From the NCBI GenBank assembly GCA_038087875.1, contig CM075987.1, forward strand, positions 24,244,001-24,308,000: a stretch of 64,000 nucleotides of DNA, in the 5' to 3' direction. Under the pieces are notes generated by a model. The model was not told the origin of the DNA, searched no databases, and was given only the letters and a program-made list of their open reading frames with translations. Below are positions 4,761-43,053 of the stretch, one piece after another. This DNA is from Malacoraja senta. Taxonomy: Eukaryota. The first letter of the stretch is position 1; every line of letters starts with the position of its first letter. The translations under genes were made by a program, and so were the position numbers.

Positions 4761-6727
4761 AAATCCCGTGCGGTGATCAGCCTGTCGTACCAGTTTATCT
4801 TTGATCTCCGTGAATCTTATGCTATCCTCCTTCCTAGCTGTTAAAATTGCTACAAAGCTTTAACGAGGTTGCATTGAAATCATACTCACAATTGTAACAT
4901 GATCCAGCTAAGTCATATAAATCACAAGCAGTGGCAGTCCCAACAATTACTACTGAGTATTCTGAGGTAAAATAATCTGAAAAAAACTGGACCAACTACA
5001 ATTGCTCTTCTGTTCCTCAGTATATTTCATGTCATTCATTTGCTGCTCCTCTAATATTAAAGGTTACAATTTTTGCCAACAAACTTATCGTAGTTTATCA
5101 AACCTTTGGGTGTGAGTGGATTAGTATGGGAGGGTCAAGGAAAGAGCGTTCATGTCGCGGCCCTGTTTCCACCAATCTTTCCGTCACTATGCACAAGCAC
5201 AAGAAGCGCAAGATGCCATTGTACGCAGATGCCGAGAAGTGTGTTCAGCTCTGGCTGAACAATTTCTAATCTTGTGATGTGGACTCGATAAGAAGAAGAG
5301 GGATGTGGAGGCCAAGTCAATGGATACTTTTGAGGTGGAGGTTGATAGATTCTTGATTAGTACGGGTGTCAGAGGTTACGGGGAGAAGGCAGGAGAATGG
5401 GGTTGAGGGGGAAAGATGGATCACCCATGACTAAATGGCGGAGTGGGCCAAATAGCCTAATTCTGATCCTATGACTTATGAAGATGGACTTAGTCCTTAT
5501 ATGCAATACATCAGCTATCATCCAACCAACCTTTCTGTTATGTTGTCAAAAGAACAATCATAACAATGAGCATGAAGAAACTGCAGATGCTGGTTTACAC
5601 TGACGATAGTCACAAAAAGCTGGAGTAACTCAGCGGGTCAGGCAGCATCTCTGGAGAGAAGGAATGGACGACGTTTCGGGTCGTGACCCTTCTATCTAGA
5701 AATGTTGCCTATCCCGTTGAGTTACTCCAGCTAAACTAAACTAAGCTTTTTGTATAAGAAAGAACTGCAGATGCTGGTTTAAATTGAAGGTCGACACAAA
5801 ATGCTGGAGTAGCTCAGCAGGTCAGGCAGCATCTCTGGAGAGAAGGAATGGACGATGGTTCGGGTCGAGACCCTTCTTCAAACTTCTTCAAACATTTTGT
5901 ATGTACTTTGGCTCCATGCTGAATTATGAATCTAATATGAATCTGGTATGGTCCCTTGTCTTATTTCATTTTAACCTCTATTTCGACCCCCTGCGGCTGC
6001 CTCAGATACCTTTCCTTACTTCATCGTGCAGATATGTCTGTTCTGTAGCCAAACCATCTCTGAAGGCCTGACATTGCTAAGTTAATATTTTACCTGCCAA
6101 CCATTGATTCCAGGTCCCTTATCAAATCTATGAAACTTGCTCTGTCCTGGGTAGAAGGTTTCCACAATTGATTTTTTTCTTTGTCTTTCTGCGACTTTAA
6201 ATCGAACGATATTGAGTTTCCCGAATAGTTTCTCACTGAAAGACACTTTCTGTCACTCACTTGGGTTTGTTGGTTTAGAGATGCAGCGTGGAACCAGACA
6301 TGTCAAACTAAAGTCCAACCAAACCTAGGTCGACAGTAGATCACAGTTACTGAGGTAGGGTTGTAGTTAGTGCACAAATGATCAAATTTACAACACTACC
6401 TAATAAACTACTAGAGCTGACCATCTGAACCAACTTGATACTCATAATGTGTAGGTAGGAAGTGCAGATGCTGGTTTATACCGAAGCTAGACACAAAATG
6501 CTGGAGTAACTCTGTGGGTCAGGCAGCATCTCTGGAGAAAAGGGTCGGAACCCTTCTTCAGACACATTAGTCATACTCATACTCTGATACTCATACTTGC
6601 ATGAGAATCATTTAATAAATACACTGATACAATTTTAGAAAGGAATTCTAACTGACTAAATATGTACGAAGGAATTGAAGATGCTGGTTTACACCAGAGA
6701 TAGACACAAAGTAACTCAGCGGGTCAG

Positions 6728-7922
6728 ATTCCTCAGATTTGGAGACCAAAACTGTACGCAATACTCCAGGTGTGGTCTCACCAAGACCCTGTACAACTGC
6801 AGTAGAACCTCCCTGCTCCTATACTCAAATCCTTTTGCTATGAATGCTAACATACCATTCGCTTTCTTCACTGCCTGCTGCACCTGCATGCCTACTTTCA
6901 ATGACTGGTGTACCATGACACCCAGGTCTCGTTGCATCTCCCCTTTTCCTAATCGGCCACCATTCAGATAATAGTCTACTTTCCTGTTTTTGCCACCAAA
7001 GTGGATAACCTCACATTTATCCACATTATACTGCATCTGCCATGCATTTGCCCACTCACCCAGCCTATCCAAGTCACCTTGCAGCCTCCTAGCATCCTCC
7101 TCACAGCTAACACTGTCCCCCAGCTTCGTGTCATCCGCAAACTTGTTGCATTCAATTCCCTCGTCCAAATCATTAATATATATTGTAAATAGATGGGGTC
7201 CCAGCACTGAGCCTTGCGGTACCCCACTAGTCATTGCCTGCCATTGTGAAAAGGACCCGTTTACTCCTATTCTTTGCTTCCTGTCTGCCAGCCAGTTCTC
7301 TATCCACATCAATACTGAACCCCCAATACCGTGTGCTTTAAGTTTGCATACTAATCTCTTATGTGGGACCTTGTCGAAAGTCTTCTGAAAGTCCAGATAT
7401 AACACATCCACTGGTTCTCCCTTATCCACTCTACTAGTTACATCCTCGAAAAATTCTATAAGATTCGTCTGACATGATTTACCTTTCGTAAATCCATGCT
7501 GACTTTGTCCAATGATTTCACCACTTTCCAAATGTGCTGCTATCCCATCTTTAATAACTGACTCTGGCAGTTTCCCCACTACCGATGTTAGACTAACTGG
7601 TCTGTAAATCCCCGTTTTCTCTCTCCCTCCCTTTTTAAAAAGTGGGGTTACATTAGCTACCCTCCAATCCTCAGGAACTACTCCAGAATCTAAAGAGTTT
7701 TGAAAAATTATCACTAATGCATCCACTATTTCTGGGGCTACTTCCTTAAGTACTCTGGGATGCAGCCTATCTGGACCTGGGGATTTATCGGCCTTTAATC
7801 CATTCAATTTACCTAACACCACTTCCCGGCTAACCTGGATTTCACTCAGTTCCTCCATCTCATTTGACCCCCGGTCCCCTGCTATTTCCAGGCAGATTAT
7901 TTATGTCTTCCTTAGTGAAGAC
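6728..7922 (-). mobile_element. CR1-clade (HER1-like) LINE ORF2 fragment, reverse transcriptase domain
   Basis: ORF 6716-7858 has KSPGPD, YRPVSLTSVVGK, QHGF, YLDFQKTFDKVPH, GVPQGSVLGP, KFADDTKL and RPHLEYCVQFWSP. Truncated at both ends. Confidence 0.95.
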
Positions 7923-14210: not shown

Positions 14211-16954
14211 TTGAAGTGACAATAGGAAGTTTGTGAACCCTGAATTCCAAGCCGACCCTCTTGTTGTATTTATTTCCCATCATCAATGCACCTTATCTAC
14301 CTCCACCACGATTCTTCAATCCATTACCAGACAATCTCCAGATTACCAGAAGCGCCACTTAATGGCAACCATCTTACAATGTTAAATTGAGACAGTCTTG
14401 CAGTTTTTTATTCCTTAATTCCCCTCCTGCGAAATTTAAATTGTGATATTACCAAATATTATCTAAAAGAATATATGATGTCAATGAAAATTGAGAAGGT
14501 GCTGTGTTCAGAACCCCCAATAAATACATTTTAGCACAAGAGTGAATTTCCTCAGCAATTATTTTGATATGTAATGTTATCTCACAAGCCACAATTAATA
14601 TCTGTAATTTTTACAGCCATTTTCAACATTCAACATGAACCGTAGGTTAACGACACAATACATTATTTAAAGATCATTTAGTTTAGTTTAGTTCAGAGAT
14701 ACAGAGGGGAAACAGGCCGTTCGGCCCACCGAGTCCGTACCGACCAGCTATCCCCGCACACTAACACACCAGGGACAATTTACATTTATACCAAGCCAAT
14801 TAGCTTGCAATCCTGAACGTCTTTGGAGTGTGGGAGGAAACCCGAAGATCTCGGAGAAAACCAAAGCAAACCGCGGGGAGAAGGTACAAACTCCGTACAG
14901 ACAGCACCCGTGGTCAGGATCGAACCTGGGTCTCCGGCGCTGCAAGTGCCGTAAGGCAGCAACTCTACCGCTGCGCCACCGCATCGTTCTAAGGGACAAA
15001 TCATGTACCAGTTTTGTTTATTGTCACGTGTACCGAGGTACAATGAAAAGCTTTTGTTGCGCGCTAACCAGTCAGCGGAAAGACCAAACATGATTACAGT
15101 CGAGCCATTCATGCTCGAGCAAAGCATGCAATCGGGCAATGGAGCAAATCATGGCCGCATCATTAAATGCACTGATTGAGATGAGTCTCAGAATAAAACT
15201 ATAAATTTATCTTATGTGCATCCATTTGCAAATAAACCACCTGCCCATCCCATCGAGAATCTTCCTCCCCAATTATGTCGAGGTTGGTTACCATTCTGTT
15301 CAGGACTACAAAATTGAGGTGAAAATAAAGGATTCTCTATCCTGGTGGACTGCCTATAAGGACGAGGACTAATGCAGTGATTAATTTGAATACAAAAAAT
15401 CACAAAAATGATGAGAGGTGTATAATATCATGTGAGGAATTGATCATGTAGATGCACAGAGTCTCTTGACCTGAGTGGAGGAATCGAGAACCAGATGACA
15501 TAGGGTGAGGGGGGAAAGAATTAATGGGAACTTGAAGGGTAACTTTTTCACACAAAGGGGTGGTGGGTGTCTGGAACTTGCTGTCAGAGGAGGTAGTTGA
15601 GACAGGGACTATCCCAAGGTTTTAGAAACATAGAAACATAGAAAATAGGTACAGGAGTAGGCCATTCGGCCCTTCGAGCCAGCACCGTCATTCAATATGA
15701 TCATGGCTGATCATCCAAGATCACTACCCTGTTCCTGCTCTTTTCCCCATATCCCGTGATTCCGTTGCACTTCCGTTCCATTCCGGAAAGCCTTGAAACA
15801 GTTAGACAGATACATGGATAGGACAGAATTAGAGGGATATGGACCAAACGCAGGCAAGTGGGTCTGGTGTGGCTGGGACTTGTTGGGCAGTGTGGGCAAG
15901 TTGGGCCAAAGGGCCTGTTTCCACACTGTATTACTCTGTGAGTCTATGACTCTAAAAGGTGCTGGTTTGCATATAACAGTTATTGGCTGCTGATATCAAT
16001 CAAGGTTTTAACTTTTTAGAGGTGTTGACACATCAGTGCATAGCGTCACAAAACAAAGCATTGGACAAATGTATTATATGTCTATCATTTGACTGGGAGT
16101 TGGAATTGGCAGAAATCAGAGTAGTCTGCGTTCACTTTTGCAATTGCATTTGAAAGTTTTTTCTTAAGAAGTATTTAATGCTATTCCAATTGGATCTGGA
16201 TTTCAACTGCAATGAGCCATCACAATCCACCATTTCCACTTTGAAACATTTCTGGTGCTTTTGAGCAGATTTTGCACCATACTAAACAATAGTTTGCAGA
16301 ATCTTTCAGTCTAAAATCTGTGATATTCATCTATACCTACAGTGTGTGAATAAGGAGTTTACAAATTGTCCTAGTTGCATTATTTGTGTTTTGAAATCCA
16401 CATATGACTATATTAATGCTTCCTGTCTAAATAGATAACTGAGATGTTACAGACTGAAGATGCACTTTGCATTCAGTTATATTAATATTGATTAATTTTA
16501 AAAGAAATGTAGTAATGAGATGATGTGAAAGGTAAAACAATAGTCTTCTGAATGGGCAAGTAGAATTTTGCAGCCAACACATAGTGAAGTGGAAGATAAA
16601 GATGATGTGGAATATTCAGCAGCATTTAGCTTAGTTTAGTTTAGTTTAAAGGTACAGCGCGGAAACAGGCCCTTCCATCCACCGAGTCCGCGCCGACCAG
16701 CGAACCCCGTACATTAACACAACCCTACACACACTGGGGACAACTCTACATTTATACCAAGCCAATTAACCTACAAACCTGTATGTTTTTGGAGTGTGGG
16801 AGGGGACCAAAGATCTTGGAGAAAACCCACACAGGTCATGGGGAAAACGTACAAACACCGTACAGACAGCACCCGTAGTCAGGATCAAACCCGGGTCTCT
16901 GGCGCTATAAGGAAGTAGCTCTATCACTGCACCACCATGCCACCCTTTTTGAAT

Positions 16955-17011
16955 GGGGATTGAACCCGCCACCTTGGCGTTATTAGCACCACGCTCTAAC
17001 CAACTGAGCTA
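16955..17011 (-). pseudogene. tRNA-Ile(AAU) pseudogene core lacking a proper acceptor stem
   Basis: Minus strand TAGCTCAGTTGGTTAGAGCGTGGTGCTAATAACGCCAAGGTGGCGGGTTCAATCCCC matches the vertebrate tRNA-Ile-AAT D, anticodon and T arms. The GGCCGGT/ACGGGCC acceptor is absent. Confidence 0.85.
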
Positions 17012-18663
17012 TTCAAGCCCACTTTGGCAAAAGGAGATTTTGTTGGTGAAAGTGGACATGTTTGATGGTGGACGAAATGTTCGGCAGGCACAGTTTTAGA
17101 GTAAAGGACAGCAATGTAGTACACTATTGAATTTAGCCTGAGCAGGCATCCAGGATGAGGGATGGGAATAAGTCCAAACAGATGGTTTTGATTTGACCAA
17201 TGTTGAATCGCACAAAGTTCTGCCTCATGCATGACTTGAAATCACACGGGAAATACAATAAATTAGGCAAATATTTGAGTACAAGACAACTAGGTTTTAA
17301 AACAAGCACATTCAAGGTCTTATCAACTCTTCGGAAACAGTGAGACTAGTTTCGGCTCTACAACAATAAATGCCCAATGATCAAGCATGTCTGATCTTCT
17401 AATGTTCTTTGGCATGTGCCGCGTTCACAAAAGGTGTTACGTGAAGAAAGTCTTTTCATTTTCTCCCCTTTCTTTGAATATTATCTACCTACTACAGTTT
17501 TTAATTTGGCTACACACACAAACATTCTTGTTCTTCACCCTTTAAGTCATTTCAGAACCAGCAGGAAACTCTTTGAAGAATAAAACCATGCCATCCAAAT
17601 GGAAACACTTCACAATAACACTTTTTAAAAATATATAACTGTAAAGAAATCTCCTTTTTGATGCATTCCAGTTAGGAAGTTTTAAGATAAAACCCCAAGA
17701 AGTCAGATTTACTTCTGATTGTGGAAGTGAAATTCATATATGTGCAGTTTCTGGATGTGAAGTGAATGATTGGTGTCAATTCACAATCCTCGAGATATGG
17801 CCTTTAACTAATCCAGTTCAGAGGAACAAAGGCGATACAACTCCTTTGAAGCTGAGGCAATTTTTAAGTCATTTCAGAGGCAAGTTACTAATATAAAAGG
17901 CAACATAATGTTTAGATTTGTGAACAGCGACTGTCTTGATTTTTAGCCACAAAGGTAATCCCATCCTCAATCAACAATAATGCCTGTGTTCTTGGCACTG
18001 AGGGAGTTGAGAATAAGTAGAAATGCTGAGTTCTTCAAAGCTCAGAAATGATGAAATATGCCACTCCATTTCTTGTGTACATTCAGTACTTATACCTGGG
18101 ACCCTCTTACTCTGTGGGTCTCGGTTGTGTTAAGAAACCTAATATTTTGCATGTGTATATACTCTTGAAATTATGCAGCTTCAATGTTTCACTGCTCTTA
18201 CTTTCTTTGTCACCTCAGCTTGTGGTGTTACTAGTGACTGCATAGTGTCTTCATGTTATTCCTATAGTTGGCAAACTGCTGCTTCTAATGCACAAGCTCT
18301 CGATATGATACAGAGGTTTGAAAACACATACCCCACCGGATTCAGGAACAGTTTCTTCCCAGCTGCTAACAGGCAACTAAATGATCCTCCCATTAACTTG
18401 AGTTGCTCTCCCATCTACCTCAATGGAGACCTATGAACTATCTTTAATCGGACTTCAATGTTATATCTTTGTACGATATGTTGTACCCTTGATCCTTAAA
18501 CTGTGCGCTGTGGGTGGTTTGATTGTATTCATGCATAGTCTTTCCTTTGATTGGATAGTATGCAAACAAAAATAATTCACTGTTCCTCCGGTACACATGA
18601 CTATAATAAACTAAACTGAACTAAGTATTGCAGGTTTATTCTGAAGAATGATATTGCTCACTT

Positions 18664-18804
18664 CTTCTTCTTCTTGCGTATGGCGTGCACAGCCTAAAGT
18701 TGTAGGACAACTTGTTCTATTTGATCTTATTTGATTGTGCACGCCAGGTTGATTGCATTCGTCGAAACAGGGCGGACCACGTGAAGGTTGCAATCTCCCA
18801 CCCC
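18664..18804 (-). mobile_element. Short non-autonomous retroposon (Vingi/RTE-like 3' end, (AAG)n tail) headed by an HDV-like ribozyme
   Basis: Flanked by the 11-bp direct repeat ATTGCTCACTT (18653-18663 and 18805-18815). The minus strand ends GCCATACGCAAGAAGAAGAAG. No tRNA A/B boxes. Confidence 0.8.
18751..18804 (-). ncRNA. Minimal HDV/CPEB3-like self-cleaving ribozyme (54 nt)
   Basis: Minus strand parses as P1 GGGGUGG, J1/2 GA, P2 GAUUGCA, P3 ACC, L3 UUCACGU, P3' GGU, P1' CCGCCCU, GU, UUCGA, J4/2 CGAA, P2' UGCAAUC. All helices pair and the G1-U wobble is present. Confidence 0.8.
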
Positions 18805-20786
18805 ATTGCTCACTTAATTAAATTACACCAATTTCATTTTTTAAATTCAGTTTGATTTCAATCCAAATAAATATGGACTGTTATTGATCCAGCCAAATTC
18901 TTTTTTGCAGTTGAAAAGTTTGTCATCCATTTAAACTGGAAACACACCAATGGATTCTTTTTCAGGTGGAGATCAACAGATTCTTGATTAGTACGGGTCC
19001 TGGGGTTATGGGGAGAAGGCAGGAGAATGGGGTTGAGAGGAAAAGATTGATCAGCCATGGTTGAATGGTGGAATAGACATGATGGGCCGAATGGCCTCAT
19101 TCTGCTCCTATAACTTATGAACTTTAGTTTAGTTTAGTTTAGAGATATAGCGCGGAAACACGCCCTTCGACCCACCGAGTCCGCGCCGACCAGCAATCTC
19201 CCAGTACACTAACACTATCCTACACACACTTGGGATAATTTACAATTTTACCAAGCCAATTAACCTACAAACCTGTACGTCGTAAGGAGTGTTGGAGGAA
19301 TCCGGAGCACCCGGAGAAAACCCACACAAGTCACTTATGAAACTTTGAATGTGTTCAAGGTCAGGCAAAAAAAAGATAATGTGGGAGAATGAAGATTATA
19401 CTTATAAAAGCACAAGGTGAGATCCTAAAAGTCAATTTATTCAGTACAATTAAAATAAATCATTTTATTATAAATTATAACAATTTTGTCGCAGAATGTT
19501 CTCTGTACCTGAATAATTCAATCCCACTATAGCTCGCTTCATTTCTATGTTTGTTTACCACAGCAAACACTTGTGTTGAAAGAACATCTCTGGATAAAAG
19601 GAATAGGTGCTGTTTCCGGTCGAGACCTTTCTTCAGACTGAAAATTCGGAGTCTGAAGAAGGGTCTCGGCCCGAAGCGTCACCTATTCCTTGTGCCCAGA
19701 GATGCTGCCTCACCCGCTGAGTTACTCCAGCATTTTGTGTCTTATCTTCAATTTAAACCAGCACCTGCAGTTCTTTCTTACACATAAAATAAATCATTAC
19801 CATTACCACATATTTTAAAAAAGTTGTGAAATTATAATAATCTGAAACTGGTAATATATCTCTCGACATGAATTCAACGCAAAACCCAGCCGTTTTCATT
19901 AGGGATACATTGCTTGTATCCTGCCTGGAAGAAGTTTTATAAATTGATTTTCACAGCTTCACAATTCAGCACTACGACAATTTCCAGGTCAGGCCCATCA
20001 TGCAGTGTTCTGCAAAACACATCCATTATTTGTCAATGGCCCATTTAAATCGTGCCATCTCACACACACACCTTGAAGCTCCGGAGGATATAAGGGACGA
20101 TATAAACACAAGTGTGGTGTGGGAAGGAACTGCAGATGCTGGTTTAAATTGAAGATAAGACACAAAAAGCTGGAGTAACTCTGCGGGTCAGGCAGCTTCT
20201 CTGGAGAAAAGGAATAGGTGACGTTTCGGCTCGAGACCCTTCTTCAGGGTCCGAATTTTCAGTCTGAAGAAGGGTCTCGACCGTAAACAGCACCTATTCC
20301 TTTTCTACAGAGATGTTCTTTCAACTCAAGTGTTTGCTGCAGTAAACAAACATAGAAATGAAGCGAGCTAAAGTGGGATTGAATTATTCAGGTACAGAGA
20401 ACATTCTATGGCAAAATTATTGGACATACTATTCAAGACTTTAGAAAAAACATGTACAGGTTTGAATCTTTTTTCTCTTATGTTATTGGACAACTATCTT
20501 CAAACTCATCTGTCTGTATTCTAATCTATTACTTTACAAAATTGAAATTATAATTCAATTTATAGACACAAAGAACTGCAGAGGCTGGTTAGGAAAGAAC
20601 TGCAGATGCTGGTTAAAATCAAAAGTGGACACAAAATGCTGGAATAACTCAGCGGGCCAGGCAGCATCTTTGGAGAGAAGGACTGGGTGACTTTTCAGGT
20701 CGAGACCCTTCTTCATACCCTTCTGCAGATGCTGGTTAATACACAAAAGGACACAAAGTACTGGATTAATCCAACTGGTCAGGCAG

Positions 20787-40650: not shown

Positions 40651-40907
40651 AAACGTCACCTAAACGTCGTCTATATCTCTTGTTCCCCTTATACCTAACC
40701 AGTCTGCTGAAGGGTCTCGACCCATAACGTCATCCATTCCTTCTCTCCAGGGATGCTGTCTGACCCGCTGAGTTACTCCAGCTTTTTGTGTCTACCTTCA
40801 AGAAATGTTATGCCGCATGAAATGAGAACTAAGTCGTAGTAACGTTAAGATATTTGAAAACCTTTCCTTCGAAACATCTCACAGACTTTTATGTTTCTTG
40901 GATGTAG

Positions 40908-41964
40908 GACTTTACGACAAATGCCCTTGCACATTGCGGGACAGAGGATGGGGAGTTGGCATCCAGTCGGCGGACGGCTTGGGCAAGAGGGACCCGCGGT
41001 TCTTCTTCAGCCTGAGGACGGACAGAGCTCGGAAGTTGACCACCATCATGACCCAGCAGAAGTACCAGGCCAACCAGTGGGTCCACTTGGCCGCCAGCTA
41101 CGACGGGCGGGAAATGAAGCTCTACGTGAACGGAGCGCAGGTGGCCAGGAGCAACGAGCAGGTCGGCGACATATTCAGTCCCCTCAGCAAAAAGTGCAAG
41201 GCTCTCACCCTCGGGGGAAACTTTCAACATCAGAACTTCCGTGGCTACGTCACCGACTTTAGCTTGTGGGGCGAAGGCAGAACTCAGCAGGAGATAATCC
41301 AAGATATGAAACACCACGCTCACGATACCAATGGGCCGGTCCTTTATGACAACTTTGAGGATGTGAAGAGGCACTGGCTCACTGTGAAGGACAGCAAATA
41401 CCCTCGAGCAGAACTGAAGCATTACGTCGACTGGGTATCAAGCACTAACCTGGAACCTCCACCCTGTGGCCAAACTGTGTGTGACAACATGGAAGTCACG
41501 TCGAGCTACAACAACCTCTTCAACTTTCGCAAGGTGAAGACAGTTCGCTACAGGGTGGTCAACATCTGCGACGACAACCGCCAGAAGACGACCGTTACCA
41601 GAGAGCAGATCCAACTTCAGCACCGGCACCTAAACAGCGCCTTCGAGCGGTACAACATCACCTGGGATATTACAGTTTTGGACGTGAAGAATTCCTCCCT
41701 GAGGGACCGTCTTATCTTGGCCAACTGCGATATCAGCAAAATTGGGAACGGGGACTGTGACCCCGAGTGTAATCACACGCTGACCGGAAACGATGGCGGC
41801 GATTGTAAACCACTCAGGCGCTCACCTCTGTTAAAGAAGAAAGGAAATGGGGTGTGTGATATGGAATGCAATGATGAACTGTACAACTTTGATGATGGTG
41901 ATTGCTGCAATCCAGCGGTGACTGATGTAACAAAGACATGTTTTGACCCCAAATCACCCTACAG
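40908..41964 (+). CDS. PAPPA: PAPPA coding exon 2 (LamG-like domain, N-terminal part of the metalloprotease domain, LNR1-2 repeats)
   Basis: Uninterrupted 1057-nt frame: GLYDKC..RDRGW..DPRFFFSLRTDRA..LEPPPCGQTVCDN..LILANCDISKIG..CDPECNHTLTG.DGGDC..GVCDMECN..TCFDPKSPY. Acceptor TAG at 40905-40907, donor AG|GTAGCA. Phases join exon 1 (G|GA = Gly) and exon 3 (AG|G = Arg). Confidence 0.97.
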
Positions 41965-43053
41965 GTAGCATTAACAATATTTAATCATTGAATGATTAGC
42001 ATGAGATATACTTAACAGGAGGACACACAGTGCCTGAGTAACTCAGTGTGTCAGGCAGTGTCTCTGGATAACAAGCATGTTCTACAGAGATGCTGCCTGA
42101 CCTGCTGAATTACTCCAGCACTGTTCCCTTTGGCATATTGAGCAGCATTTGCAGTTCCTTATTTCTATACTTAACAAGGATAAGTTCAAATAAAGGCCTC
42201 TCGAGGTGAATATTTGAACATAATACTATTGAGAGTGCGGGGTGGTGCAGCCTTTCTTACTGCCACCTCACACCTACTCAATGCTGTCTGTGTGGAGTTT
42301 GCAGGAGCTTCCTCTTTGTTGTTCTTGTTACCTTGTGCCCAAGCAGGTTAATTGCCACAGACAAAGTGTTTAAGAAGGAACTGCAGATGCTGGAAAATCG
42401 AAGGTACACAAAAGTGCTGGAGAAACTCAGCGGGTGCAGCAGCATCTATGGAGCAAAAGAGATAGGCTCCTTCGCTCCATAGATGCTGCTGCACCCGCTG
42501 AGTTTCTCAAGCACGTTTGTGTACCTAATTGCCACAGACAGCTGTGGAGGTCAAGTCAGTGGATACATTTAAGGCAGAGATAGATAGATTCTTGATTAGT
42601 ACTGGTGTCAGGCGTTATTGGGAAAAGGCAGGAGAATGGGATTAGGAGAGATAGATCAGCCATGATTAAATGGCGGAGTAGACTTGATGGGCCGAATGGC
42701 CTAATTCTGTTCCGATCATTTACGAACATGAACTTATGAATTGGCCAAATGTAGTAGGTGGGAAAAGAATCAAAAAAGGGGAATGAGAGGGCATGTAGGA
42801 GAGAATAATGTTGCAACCTTTCAGGGATATAAGAAGCAAAATCAGACTGAGGGGATAGCTCGTCTAGGAGCCAGCAACAAAATGATGGGCCAAATGTCTT
42901 GTGTTTCAATAAGTATGAAAGAAATGCTTCAATTTCATGCCATCTAATTGCTTTGTGCTTTTCTATTATGGGGTTATGAAGTGGAAATTCGTAGGTCCTG
43001 TTTGAGACAGAGTGCGGTGAGTTTAATGGCACTGTTACTCATCTCGAACCTTA

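What the first reader, a model, noticed from the sequence alone, without database searches (positions are those of the whole stretch)
18653..18815. 141-bp retroposon whose 5' end is a complete minimal HDV/CPEB3-type ribozyme
Seen: the minus strand of 18804-18751 reads GGGGUGG GA GAUUGCA ACC UUCACGU GGU CCGCCCU GU UUCGA CGAA UGCAAUC. This gives the nested double pseudoknot: a 7-bp P1 with G1-U wobble, a 7-bp P2, a 3-bp P3, and a J4/2 CGAA placing the putative catalytic C at 18761. P4 is shrunk to about one pair around UUCG. The predicted cleavage site (before G1, 18804) is exactly the element boundary next to the 11-bp TSD ATTGCTCACTT. The remainder is an 11-bp stem (TGGCGTGCACA/TGTGCACGCCA) enclosing a second hairpin (AAGTTGT/ACAACTT), then an (AAG)n tail. 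Known: L3 UUCACGU, the GU after P1 and J4/2 CGAA are the mammalian CPEB3 ribozyme signature, and HDV-like ribozymes process the 5' ends of R2, RTE and ingi/L1Tc retrotransposons. Inference: this is a promoterless, SINE-sized element that cuts itself out of host read-through transcripts and borrows a Vingi/RTE-type RT. If so, it could scatter active ribozymes across a chondrichthyan genome. Whether the family or its ribozyme is already described could not be checked.
Basis: partly seen in the sequence, partly recalled or inferred. Interest (0 to 1): 0.9.

Follow-up and report, generated by a model that had tools for sequence, protein, structure and literature searches.

The report
Self-cutting ribozyme heads a short retroposon
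A 141-base jumping element, present in thousands of copies in this fish-grade vertebrate genome, begins with a stripped-down copy of the self-cutting RNA known from hepatitis delta virus and the mammalian CPEB3 gene. A full-size jumping gene in the same genome begins with the complete version, which hints at where the mammalian ribozyme came from.

Summary
The minus strand of 18804-18751 fits the HDV/CPEB3 nested double pseudoknot, with P1 7 bp (G1·U), P2 7 bp, P3 3 bp and P4 cut to 5 nt. A generic descriptor hits only this locus in the window and nothing in 125 simulated windows.

The element is a real retroposon. The 54-nt head occurs 5,708 times at 3 or fewer mismatches in the 1.94-Gb genome. 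Target-site duplications abut G1.

The key new result is a 3.1-kb RTE-like LINE in the same genome. It starts with a full-P4 ribozyme that scores 59.7 bits on Rfam CPEB3_ribozyme (cut-off 35). It ends in a (GAA)n tail like the element's tail.

Between the two ribozymes, 8 of 17 helix pairs differ on both sides and none is broken. All 13 core nucleotides are identical. A third family repeats the pattern.

Most likely the head is a minimal, P4-less self-cleaving ribozyme that trims read-through transcripts to G1, and the LINE's enzymes copy the RNA. Cleavage itself is untested.

Ribozyme-headed LINEs and non-autonomous elements are already published. What looks new is the P4-less form in a eukaryote and CPEB3-type ribozymes outside mammals.

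The parts
18805..18815 (-). 5' target-site duplication AAGTGAGCAAT
   Evidence: It is repeated at 18653-18663. Other copies carry different TSDs that end at the same boundary.
18751..18804 (-). 54-nt minimal HDV/CPEB3-type ribozyme; predicted cleavage is 5' of G1 (18804)
   Evidence: There are 5,708 genomic copies at 3 or fewer mismatches.
18798..18804 (-). P1 5' strand GGGGUGG, pairing with 18769-18775
   Evidence: Pairs 5-7 are changed on both sides in the LINE ribozyme.
18789..18795 (-). P2 5' strand GAUUGCA, pairing with 18751-18757 (the pseudoknot)
   Evidence: 7 Watson-Crick pairs. Three pairs are changed on both sides relative to the LINE. Family B carries a third fully paired spelling (read by eye).
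18776..18788 (-). P3 ACC/GGU enclosing L3 UUCACGU
   Evidence: L3 is identical in the SINE, the LINE, family B and the Rfam CPEB3 consensus.
18769..18775 (-). P1 3' strand CCGCCCU
   Evidence: G18773 varies to A in subfamilies, which turns U·G into U-A.
18762..18768 (-). J1/4 GU followed by the 5-nt P4 remnant UUCGA
   Evidence: The LINE has a 24-nt P4 hairpin at this place.
18758..18761 (-). J4/2 CGAA; the putative catalytic C is 18761
   Evidence: It aligns to GCGAAU of the CPEB3 model. Position 18760 varies G/U/A among copies, while 18761 is not listed as variable at 10% or more.
18751..18757 (-). P2 3' strand UGCAAUC
18681..18746 (-). 3' domain: 11-bp outer stem (18746-18736 with 18691-18681) enclosing the hairpin 18713-18697
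   Evidence: MFE -23.9 kcal/mol, z -4.22, 0 of 200 shuffles as stable. Its origin is unknown; it has no similarity to the LINE.
18661..18680 (-). UACGC followed by the (AAG)5 tail; the last AAG overlaps the TSD
   Evidence: Tail length varies between copies. The LINE ends ...ACACGAAAAGAAGAAGAA. An older SINE subfamily ends ...CACACGAAAGAAGAAG.
18653..18663 (-). 3' target-site duplication

Best explanation
The element (minus strand, 18804 to about 18664) is a non-autonomous non-LTR retroposon with three modules.
1. A 54-nt P4-less ribozyme of the HDV/CPEB3 type.
2. An 87-nt stem-loop domain.
3. An (AAG)n tail.

Proposed cycle:
- A copy is transcribed as part of a longer host or neighbouring transcript (inferred).
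- The head folds into the double pseudoknot and cuts 5' of G1, giving an RNA that starts exactly at the element's first base. The fold is supported here; the cleavage is inferred.
- The endonuclease and reverse transcriptase of the RTE-like LINE in the same genome nick TC|A-type sites and prime on the (AAG)n tail.
- The RNA is copied up to G1, leaving 10-13-bp TSDs. The pattern of insertions is shown; which enzyme does it is inferred.

That LINE itself starts with a full-P4 CPEB3-type ribozyme. The head is related to the LINE's ribozyme but is not a recent deletion derivative of that LINE.
For: **Fold.**
- All helices are complete.
- The descriptor is unique in the window, with 0 hits in 125 simulated windows.
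- The two best Rfam hits are both HDV-type, in the same register.

**Comparative support.** The LINE at G000:C1:86602702 starts with a ribozyme of identical architecture: P1 7, J1/2 2, P2 7, P3 3, L3 7, J1/4 2, J4/2 4.
- 8 of 17 helix pairs differ on both sides and none is broken.
- 13 of 13 nucleotides in L3, J1/4 and J4/2 are identical.
- Formal count on P1+P3: 97.5% of cells paired, and 5 of 10 pairs changed on both sides. The covariation score is 0.446 against 0.132 in shuffles (0 of 500 as high), and slid controls give 44-59% paired.
- The LINE ribozyme scores 59.7 bits on RF00622, whose cut-off is 35.
- Family B (680 pattern matches) has the same core with a third spelling of P2 (GGAAAGA/UCUUUCC) and a 6-bp P1 (read by eye).

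**5' end.**
- All 30 best BLAST copies start at G1, one of them with A1.
- 40 of 40 copies taken without regard to their flanks start there. 28 of those 40 have exact TSDs of 6-13 nt ending at -1, most often 11-12 nt. Most of the rest have imperfect TSDs by eye.
- Subfamilies down to about 82% identity start at the same base.
- Contigs from 4 other runs of 4 coded organisms lose cover at the same two ends.

**Partner LINE.**
- EN and RT domains are present.
- It is 3,109 bp long, has a (GAA)n tail and the TSD TCACAACCT.
- Copies are 98-99% alike, so it was active recently.
- The SINE shows TC|A or TCA at the TSD start in 15 of 28 cases. In family B, many of the 100 printed rows start with TCA at the fixed position 15 nt upstream (seen by eye, not counted).

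**Precedent for activity.** P4-less HDV-like ribozymes self-cleave in vitro (PMC10879173, abstract and passages).
Against: - No cleavage assay was done and no RNA data were usable, so activity is inferred.
- The head is below the Rfam gathering score (17.3 against 35) and gave no hit in a 3.5-kb scan.
- Its nested folding energy is no better than that of shuffles (z +0.92).
- A precise 5' end is equally expected from a fixed transcription start.
- The covariation amounts to few independent events: three families in one genome.
- Variation among copies is mostly neutral decay and says little about selection.
- The SINE's 87-nt 3' domain is absent from the LINE, whose 3' UTR is about 30 nt. The two share only about 8 nt plus the tail, so the partnership rests on the tail, the TSD length and the target motif.
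- Searches for a LINE sharing exact ends with the SINE found none.
Confidence: 0.75

Rival explanations
1. The head descends from an HDV-like ribozyme but no longer cleaves, because loss of P4 killed it. The 5' end at G1 would then be set by an internal promoter (pol III or pol II), as in classical SINEs, or as in Pr77 of L1Tc, where promoter and ribozyme overlap.
For: - No activity data exist.
- GUUUCGA at nt 37-43 resembles 6 of 7 letters of a B-box core. The B-box consensus is recalled, not taken from a call.
- Dual promoter/ribozyme heads are published for L1Tc and NARTc (PMC3383444, abstract).
- The head scores below the Rfam cut-off.
Against: - ARAGORN finds no tRNA-like gene.
- By eye there is no good A-box.
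- Family B loses the B-box look-alike (UUCCA CCAA) yet keeps the fold.
- All catalytic-core letters and all 17 helix pairs are intact in the source lineage across subfamilies.
- P4-less HDV-like ribozymes are active in vitro (PMC10879173).
Confidence: 0.15
2. The match to the HDV fold is a coincidence in an ordinary SINE head.
For: The nested folding energy is not exceptional. Rfam scores are sub-threshold.
Against: - 0 descriptor hits in 125 simulated windows.
- 13 of 13 core letters are identical to a LINE-borne ribozyme that scores 59.7 bits on the CPEB3 model.
- Compensatory changes occur in all three helices.
- The motif starts exactly at the element's first base.
Confidence: 0.02
3. The element is a SIDE-type internal-deletion derivative of a LINE that shares both its ends, and that LINE, not the one found here, is the true partner.
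For: The head-plus-tail layout is that of R2 SIDEs (PMC3414825, abstract). The origin of the 87-nt 3' domain is unexplained.
Against: - Genome-wide pattern searches found no element that joins the exact 27-nt ribozyme 3' half to other sequence. They gave only deletion variants and one solo locus.
- None carries the exact 3' domain without the head.
- These searches needed exact 25-31-mers, so a diverged or lost parent would be missed.
Confidence: 0.08

Closest known systems
Mammalian CPEB3 ribozyme (Rfam RF00622)
   Same: L3 UUCACGU, CCCUGU after P3/P1, J4/2 CGAA, the G1·U wobble and the helix order all match (consensus printed). The LINE version also shares P3 GCG/CGC and AGAAGCG...CGAAUUCU, and it passes the family cut-off at 59.7 bits against 35.
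   Different: The SINE head has no P4, uses other spellings of P1, P2 and P3, and scores only 17.3 bits. It sits at the 5' end of a multi-copy retroposon rather than as a single intronic copy. The genome is non-mammalian: the window's PAPPA exon is about 58% identical to human pappalysin-1 (my count on the alignment). [quoted passage not shown]
HDV-like ribozymes at 5' ends of RTE, Baggins, R2 and L1Tc retrotransposons (Ruminski et al. 2011, Eickbush & Eickbush 2010, Sanchez-Luque et al. 2011)
   Same: The ribozyme lies at the very 5' end, the cleavage site coincides with the element boundary, and the proposed role is release from co-transcripts. See passages of PMC6765202 and the abstracts of PMC3185411 and PMC3774820.
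   Different: Those ribozymes have a P4, and most are on autonomous elements. This one is a 54-nt P4-less form on a 141-bp element. Ruminski 2011 was not held, so I could not check whether it covers a vertebrate or SINE case.
Non-autonomous elements with ribozyme heads: R2 SIDEs and NARTc
   Same: Each is a short element that keeps the LINE-type 5' ribozyme and a 3' end used by the LINE's protein (abstracts of PMC3414825 and PMC3383444).
   Different: SIDEs and NARTc share long stretches of sequence with their LINE. Here BLAST finds no similarity to the LINE. Only the ribozyme core, about 8 nt before the tail, and the tail repeat are shared.
Minimal P4-less HDV-like ribozymes (drz-Mtgn, theta ribozymes of gut phages)
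   Same: These are double pseudoknots without a P4 domain, and they are active in vitro (PMC10879173, abstract and passages).
   Different: That paper states that nearly 99% of those ribozymes lie in Caudoviricetes phages, where they process tRNAs. This one is in a vertebrate retroposon and carries the CPEB3-type core.

Membership tests
HDV-like (delta-like) self-cleaving ribozymes, defined by structure | Nested double pseudoknot in the order P1-P2-P3-L3-P3'-P1'-J1/4-P4-J4/2-P2' | tested here: met
   P1 is 7 bp, P2 7 bp and P3 3 bp, with P4 reduced to 5 nt.
HDV-like (delta-like) self-cleaving ribozymes, defined by structure | G1·U wobble at the base of P1, and a C in J4/2 followed by NAA | tested here: met
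   G18804·U18769 and C18761-G-A-A.
HDV-like (delta-like) self-cleaving ribozymes, defined by structure | Helices supported by covariation among relatives | tested here: met
   8 of 17 pairs are compensatory relative to the LINE, none is broken, and there is a third spelling in family B. The number of independent lineages is small.
HDV-like (delta-like) self-cleaving ribozymes, defined by structure | Site-specific self-cleavage 5' of G1 that depends on the J4/2 cytosine | not testable with these tools
   This needs an in vitro transcription and cleavage assay.
Rfam RF00622 CPEB3_ribozyme | Score at or above the gathering threshold of 35 bits | tested here: not met
   The SINE head scores 17.3 bits. 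The LINE ribozyme in the same genome scores 59.7 bits and does meet it.
Rfam RF00622 CPEB3_ribozyme | Single copy in an intron of the CPEB3 gene of a mammal | tested here: not met
   There are 5,708 dispersed copies. This copy lies near a PAPPA exon, and the genome is at a non-mammalian distance from human.
Classical SINE (pol III head derived from tRNA, 7SL or 5S) | tRNA-like or other small-RNA-derived head with A and B boxes | tested here: not met
   ARAGORN finds none. Rfam shows no tRNA, 7SL or 5S match over the element. There is only a 6-of-7 B-box look-alike, judged by eye against a recalled consensus.
SIDE / NARTc-type deletion derivative of its LINE | 5' and 3' ends collinear and sequence-identical with the autonomous element | tested here: not met
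   No BLAST hit between the SINE and the LINE loci. No longer element shares exact ends.
LINE-dependent non-LTR retroposon | TSDs, a 3' simple-repeat tail of variable length and dispersed copies | tested here: met
RTE clade (for the partner LINE) | About 3 kb, one ORF with an N-terminal AP-endonuclease and an RT, very short UTRs, and a short repeat tail | tested here: met
   Phylogenetic placement of the RT was not done, so 'RTE-like' rests on architecture. The clade's features are recalled.

The most novel reading that the evidence does not exclude
CPEB3-type ribozymes are not a mammalian invention. On this reading they are the standard 5' processing module of an RTE-like retrotransposon lineage that is still active in a fish-grade vertebrate.
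- The mammalian CPEB3 intron ribozyme would be a domesticated 5' end of such an element. This would supply the outgroup that PMC8233481 says is missing.
- The 141-bp element and family B would show that evolution has pared the module down to a 54-nt P4-less core.
- That core would still work in a eukaryote and would have sown thousands of potential self-cleavage sites into host transcripts.
Probability: 0.4. Interest if true: 0.85.

Novelty: new variant of a known kind. Interest (0 to 1): 0.68.

Why it matters
**Origin of the CPEB3 ribozyme.** Its origin is an open question. A 2021 study could not root its history because no copy was known outside mammals (PMC8233481, passage). A LINE-borne ribozyme that passes the CPEB3 model in a non-mammalian genome makes a retrotransposon origin directly testable, and two pared-down relatives add to the material.

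**P4-less ribozymes in eukaryotes.** Natural P4-less HDV-like ribozymes have so far been reported almost only from phages (PMC10879173). A vertebrate family with thousands of copies would widen their range and give a natural minimal CPEB3-type core for mechanistic work.

**Effects on host transcripts.** The perfect 54-nt head occurs at 100 or more places, and thousands more copies are close to it. If they cleave, they could cut host pre-mRNAs wherever they lie in the sense orientation. That can be tested as an orientation bias within genes.

Tried and rejected
- **Ultra-short element.** I suspected family B was a roughly 75-nt retroposon made of a ribozyme plus a tail. One search rejected this: a conserved body follows the internal CACAAGAAG repeats.
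- **'AT' preference before G1.** It showed but was an artefact, because my BLAST query included the window's own TSD. In 40 copies chosen by the head alone it is 8 of 40. A milder bias remains at -1: T in 21 of 40.
- **A LINE sharing exact ends with the SINE.** Searches found only deletion variants and one solo head (L031) followed by unique sequence.
- **RT fragment in the window (6716-7900).** It belongs to a different LINE, with 29% identity to the partner's RT.
- **RNA evidence.** No RNA holder is listed. The four runs laid are contigs of uncertain type ('RNA?'), so nothing can be said about expression or about RNA 5' ends.
- **Protein atlas.** It gave only generic RT clusters and no useful taxon.
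- **Earlier findings of this scan.** There was nothing for this sequence or genome. The HDV notes from other genomes are nearly all about phage and virus ribozymes, plus one DNA transposon; none bears on this element.
- **Papers not held.** Ruminski 2011, Webb 2009 and Webb & Luptak 2011. They may already describe vertebrate or SINE cases.
- **Literature searches.** Searches found no paper on HDV-like ribozymes in cartilaginous or other fish retroposons, and none on CPEB3-type ribozymes outside mammals.
- **Other copies of the LINE.** LINE TSD and tail data therefore rest on one copy.
Full report
**The observation**

The head, starting at G1 = 18804, is GGGGUGG GA GAUUGCA ACC UUCACGU GGU CCGCCCU GU UUCGA CGAA UGCAAUC.
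- P1 has 7 pairs, with G1·U at its base and one internal U·G.
- P2 has 7 Watson-Crick pairs and P3 has 3.
- Where HDV-type ribozymes carry P4 there are only 5 nt.
- The C of J4/2 is 18761.

The rest of the element is an 87-nt domain followed by a tail.
- An 11-bp stem encloses a 7-bp hairpin. The domain is far more stable than shuffles: -23.9 kcal/mol, z -4.22, 0 of 200.
- UACGC and (AAG)5 follow.
- AAGTGAGCAAT flanks both ends. Its first AAG cannot be told from the tail, so the TSD is 8-11 bp.

**Is it more than chance?**

- A generic HDV descriptor that I wrote hits this locus alone in both strands of the window. It requires a G1·U wobble, a 7-bp P1, a 3-bp Watson-Crick P3, L3 of 6-8 nt, a G in J1/4 with a C in L3, a P4 region of 3-60 nt, C-N-A-A, and a P2 of 6-8 bp.
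- The same descriptor hits nothing in 125 simulated windows with the same dinucleotide content.
- Rfam found nothing over 3.5 kb. On the 76 nt alone its two best families of 4,227 are CPEB3_ribozyme (17.3 bits, E 0.01) and HDV-F-prausnitzii (14.4 bits). Both put G1 at the cleavage site, and both are below their gathering scores.
- The printed consensus confirms that UUCACGU, CCCUGU and CGAAU are CPEB3 letters.
- The nested MFE of the head is exactly P1+P3, but its energy is ordinary (z +0.92). That is expected when a third of the pairs form a pseudoknot.

**It is a large, young retroposon family**

- The window lies in a 1.94-Gb eukaryotic assembly.
- The 54-nt head occurs 2,860 + 2,848 = 5,708 times at 3 or fewer mismatches, against 0 for the reversed control. 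All 100 listed rows are perfect matches.
- The 40 scored whole-element BLAST matches are 95-100% identical, and the 30 of them fetched as loci all start at G1, one of them with A1.
- That sample suggested 'AT' before G1. This was an artefact of my query, which included the window's own TSD. In 40 copies chosen by the head alone, AT is 8 of 40.
- In those 40 copies, 28 have an exact TSD of 6-13 nt ending at position -1, most often 11-12 nt. Most of the rest show imperfect TSDs by eye, and two are cut short by another repeat.
- Older subfamilies, down to about 82% identity, begin at the same base and also have TSDs.
- Contigs from four further runs, labelled as four different coded organisms, hold the element in hundreds of contigs. 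Their cover falls away at the same two ends, and the flanks beyond differ from contig to contig.

**A LINE with the full ribozyme**

A pattern for the CPEB3-type core with a real P4 gave 208 matches against 27 in the control. Besides mutated SINE copies, it revealed a second family.
- Three of its loci read GGGGAUC AA GGUAGAA GCG UUCACGU CGC GAUCCCU GU, then a 24-nt P4 hairpin, then CGAA UUCUACC. An ORF follows about 30 nt later.
- Rfam scores this 73-nt stretch at 59.7 bits on CPEB3_ribozyme, E 2.5e-16, against a cut-off of 35.
- The ORF carries endonuclease (Exo_endo_phos, Exo_endo_phos_2) and RVT_1 domains. The fetched copy has frameshifts.
- The element is 3,109 bp long. It ends ...ACACGAAAAGAAGAAGAA, about 30 nt after the stop codon, and is flanked by the TSD TCACAACCT.
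- At least 190 candidate copies exist, and the 40 that were scored are 98-99% identical.
- Single ORF, size, tiny UTRs and a repeat tail are the architecture of RTE-clade LINEs. That is my recollection of the clade; no RT tree was made.

**Comparative test of the fold**

- Parsed with one descriptor, the SINE and LINE ribozymes have the same architecture apart from P4.
- Of 17 helix pairs, 8 differ on both sides (3 in P1, 3 in P2, 2 in P3) and none is broken.
- All 13 nucleotides of L3, J1/4 and J4/2 are identical.
- The tool count on P1+P3 over 8 sequences gives 97.5% of cells paired and 5 of 10 pairs with changes on both sides. The covariation score is 0.446 against 0.132 in shuffles (0 of 500 as high). 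Slid partners give 44-59% paired.
- MAFFT did not put the P2 3' strands in the same columns, so P2 was counted only in my script.
- A third family, B, gave 680 pattern matches. By eye its commonest spelling reads GGGGUC AA GGAAAGA GCG UUCACGU CGC GGCCCU GU UUCCA CCAA UCUUUCC. It has the same core, a minimal P4 like the SINE's, a 6-bp P1, and a third fully paired spelling of P2.
- These are few independent lineages in one genome. Even so, conserved loops with covarying helices, including the pseudoknot helix, are what a functional fold predicts.
- Within the SINE family, the sites that vary at 10% or more in the head are 18760 and 18773. At 18760, the base after the putative catalytic C is G, U or A. 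At 18773, U·G becomes U-A.

**Is the LINE the partner?**

For:
- The tails are of the same kind.
- An older SINE subfamily ends CACACGAAAGAAGAAG, close to the LINE's ACACGAAAAGAAGAAG.
- TSD lengths are similar.
- TC|A or TCA stands at the start of 15 of 28 SINE TSDs and at the start of the one LINE TSD. In family B, many of the 100 printed rows start with TCA at the fixed position 15 nt upstream (seen by eye, not counted).
- Both families are young.

Against:
- BLAST finds no similarity between the SINE and the LINE.
- The LINE lacks the SINE's 87-nt domain.
- Searches for any element sharing exact ends with the SINE found only deletion variants.

The SINE is therefore not a recent SIDE-type deletion of this LINE. 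Trans-mobilisation by it is the best available inference, not a result.

**Rivals**

- A pol III head is unlikely. No tRNA-like gene is found, there is no small-RNA family hit, and only a partial B-box look-alike exists, which family B lacks.
- A dead ribozyme relic combined with a promoter cannot be excluded without a cleavage assay. A precise 5' end fits both readings.
- Activity without P4 is plausible, since P4-less HDV-like ribozymes cleave in vitro (PMC10879173, abstract and passages).

**Comparison with what is known**

- HDV-like ribozymes at the 5' ends of R2, RTE, Baggins and L1Tc elements are published, as is their use by non-autonomous elements. I read passages of PMC6765202 and the abstracts of PMC3414825, PMC3383444 and PMC3185411. 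The kind is known.
- Two things appear new. First, the CPEB3-type sequence occurs outside mammals. [quoted passage not shown] Second, a P4-less form occurs in a eukaryote. PMC10879173 reports nearly 99% of minimal forms in phages.
- The genome is not mammalian by distance. The window's pappalysin-1 exon (40826-41968) is about 58% identical to the human protein over 354 residues, by my count on the alignment.
- Five searches of the held library found no description of such elements.
- The key papers Ruminski 2011, Webb 2009 and Webb & Luptak 2011 were not held, and Repbase and Dfam could not be consulted.

**Verdict**

- I put 0.75 on a working, or very recently working, minimal self-cleaving ribozyme that defines the 5' end of a LINE-dependent retroposon.
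- It is a new variant of a known kind.
- The most interesting by-product is the LINE-borne CPEB3-family ribozyme, which makes the origin of the mammalian CPEB3 ribozyme testable.

Noticed in passing
G000:C1:86602702-86605810 (loci L110:1482 onward, L131, L132:1-43): A 3,109-bp RTE-like LINE whose first 73 nt score 59.7 bits on Rfam 'Mammalian CPEB3 ribozyme' (cut-off 35). It has a (GAA)n tail and the TSD TCACAACCT, and at least 190 candidate copies are 98-99% alike. This may be the first CPEB3-family ribozyme seen outside mammals.
   Followed up: partly
Own genome, e.g. G000:C1:6644467-6644581 and 679 other pattern matches: Family B is another multi-copy element. It starts with a minimal-P4 CPEB3-type ribozyme (P1 6 bp, P2 GGAAAGA/UCUUUCC, J4/2 CCAA), followed by CACAAGAAG repeats and a conserved body. 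Its length, 3' end and partner are unknown.
   Followed up: partly
L031 / L032 (G000:C2288, head at about 64620-64673): A solo copy of the 54-nt head with 2 differences, both in unpaired positions. Sequence that is unique in the genome follows it, and about 45 nt upstream lies a GAAG|GUAAGU splice-donor-like site. It could be a truncated copy or a head sitting inside a transcribed intron.
   Followed up: partly
Position -1 of SINE copies and of family B copies: The base just before G1, which belongs to the TSD, is T in 21 of 40 SINE copies and G in only 2 of 40. By eye T is also the commonest base there in family B. This may reflect second-strand cleavage or microhomology at the 5' junction. 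It is unexplained.
   Followed up: no
window 40826-41968 (+): A long exon encoding the Laminin_G_3 and LNR part of pappalysin-1 (PAPPA), about 58% identical to the human protein. The SINE copy lies 22 kb upstream on the opposite strand.
   Followed up: partly
window 6716-7900 (-): An RT ORF fragment (RVT_1, E 8e-29) of a different LINE family. It is 29% identical to the RTE-like LINE's RT.
   Followed up: partly
window 16952-17012 (-): A tRNA-like match (Rfam tRNA 34.4 bits, truncated model 7-64). It is probably the head of a tRNA-derived SINE.
   Followed up: no
window 19615-19672 and 20213-20302: Two near-perfect long hairpins share the arms GGUCGAGACCCUUCUUCAGAC. They gave weak chance-level miRNA-model hits and look like copies of a palindromic (MITE-like) repeat.
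   Followed up: no
L075, L076 and C2:193369339: Several SINE copies break off after about 70 nt and continue into the same other repeat (ATAGACAATAGG...GGCCATTCGGCCC...). This suggests repeated insertion into, or chimeras with, that abundant element.
   Followed up: no
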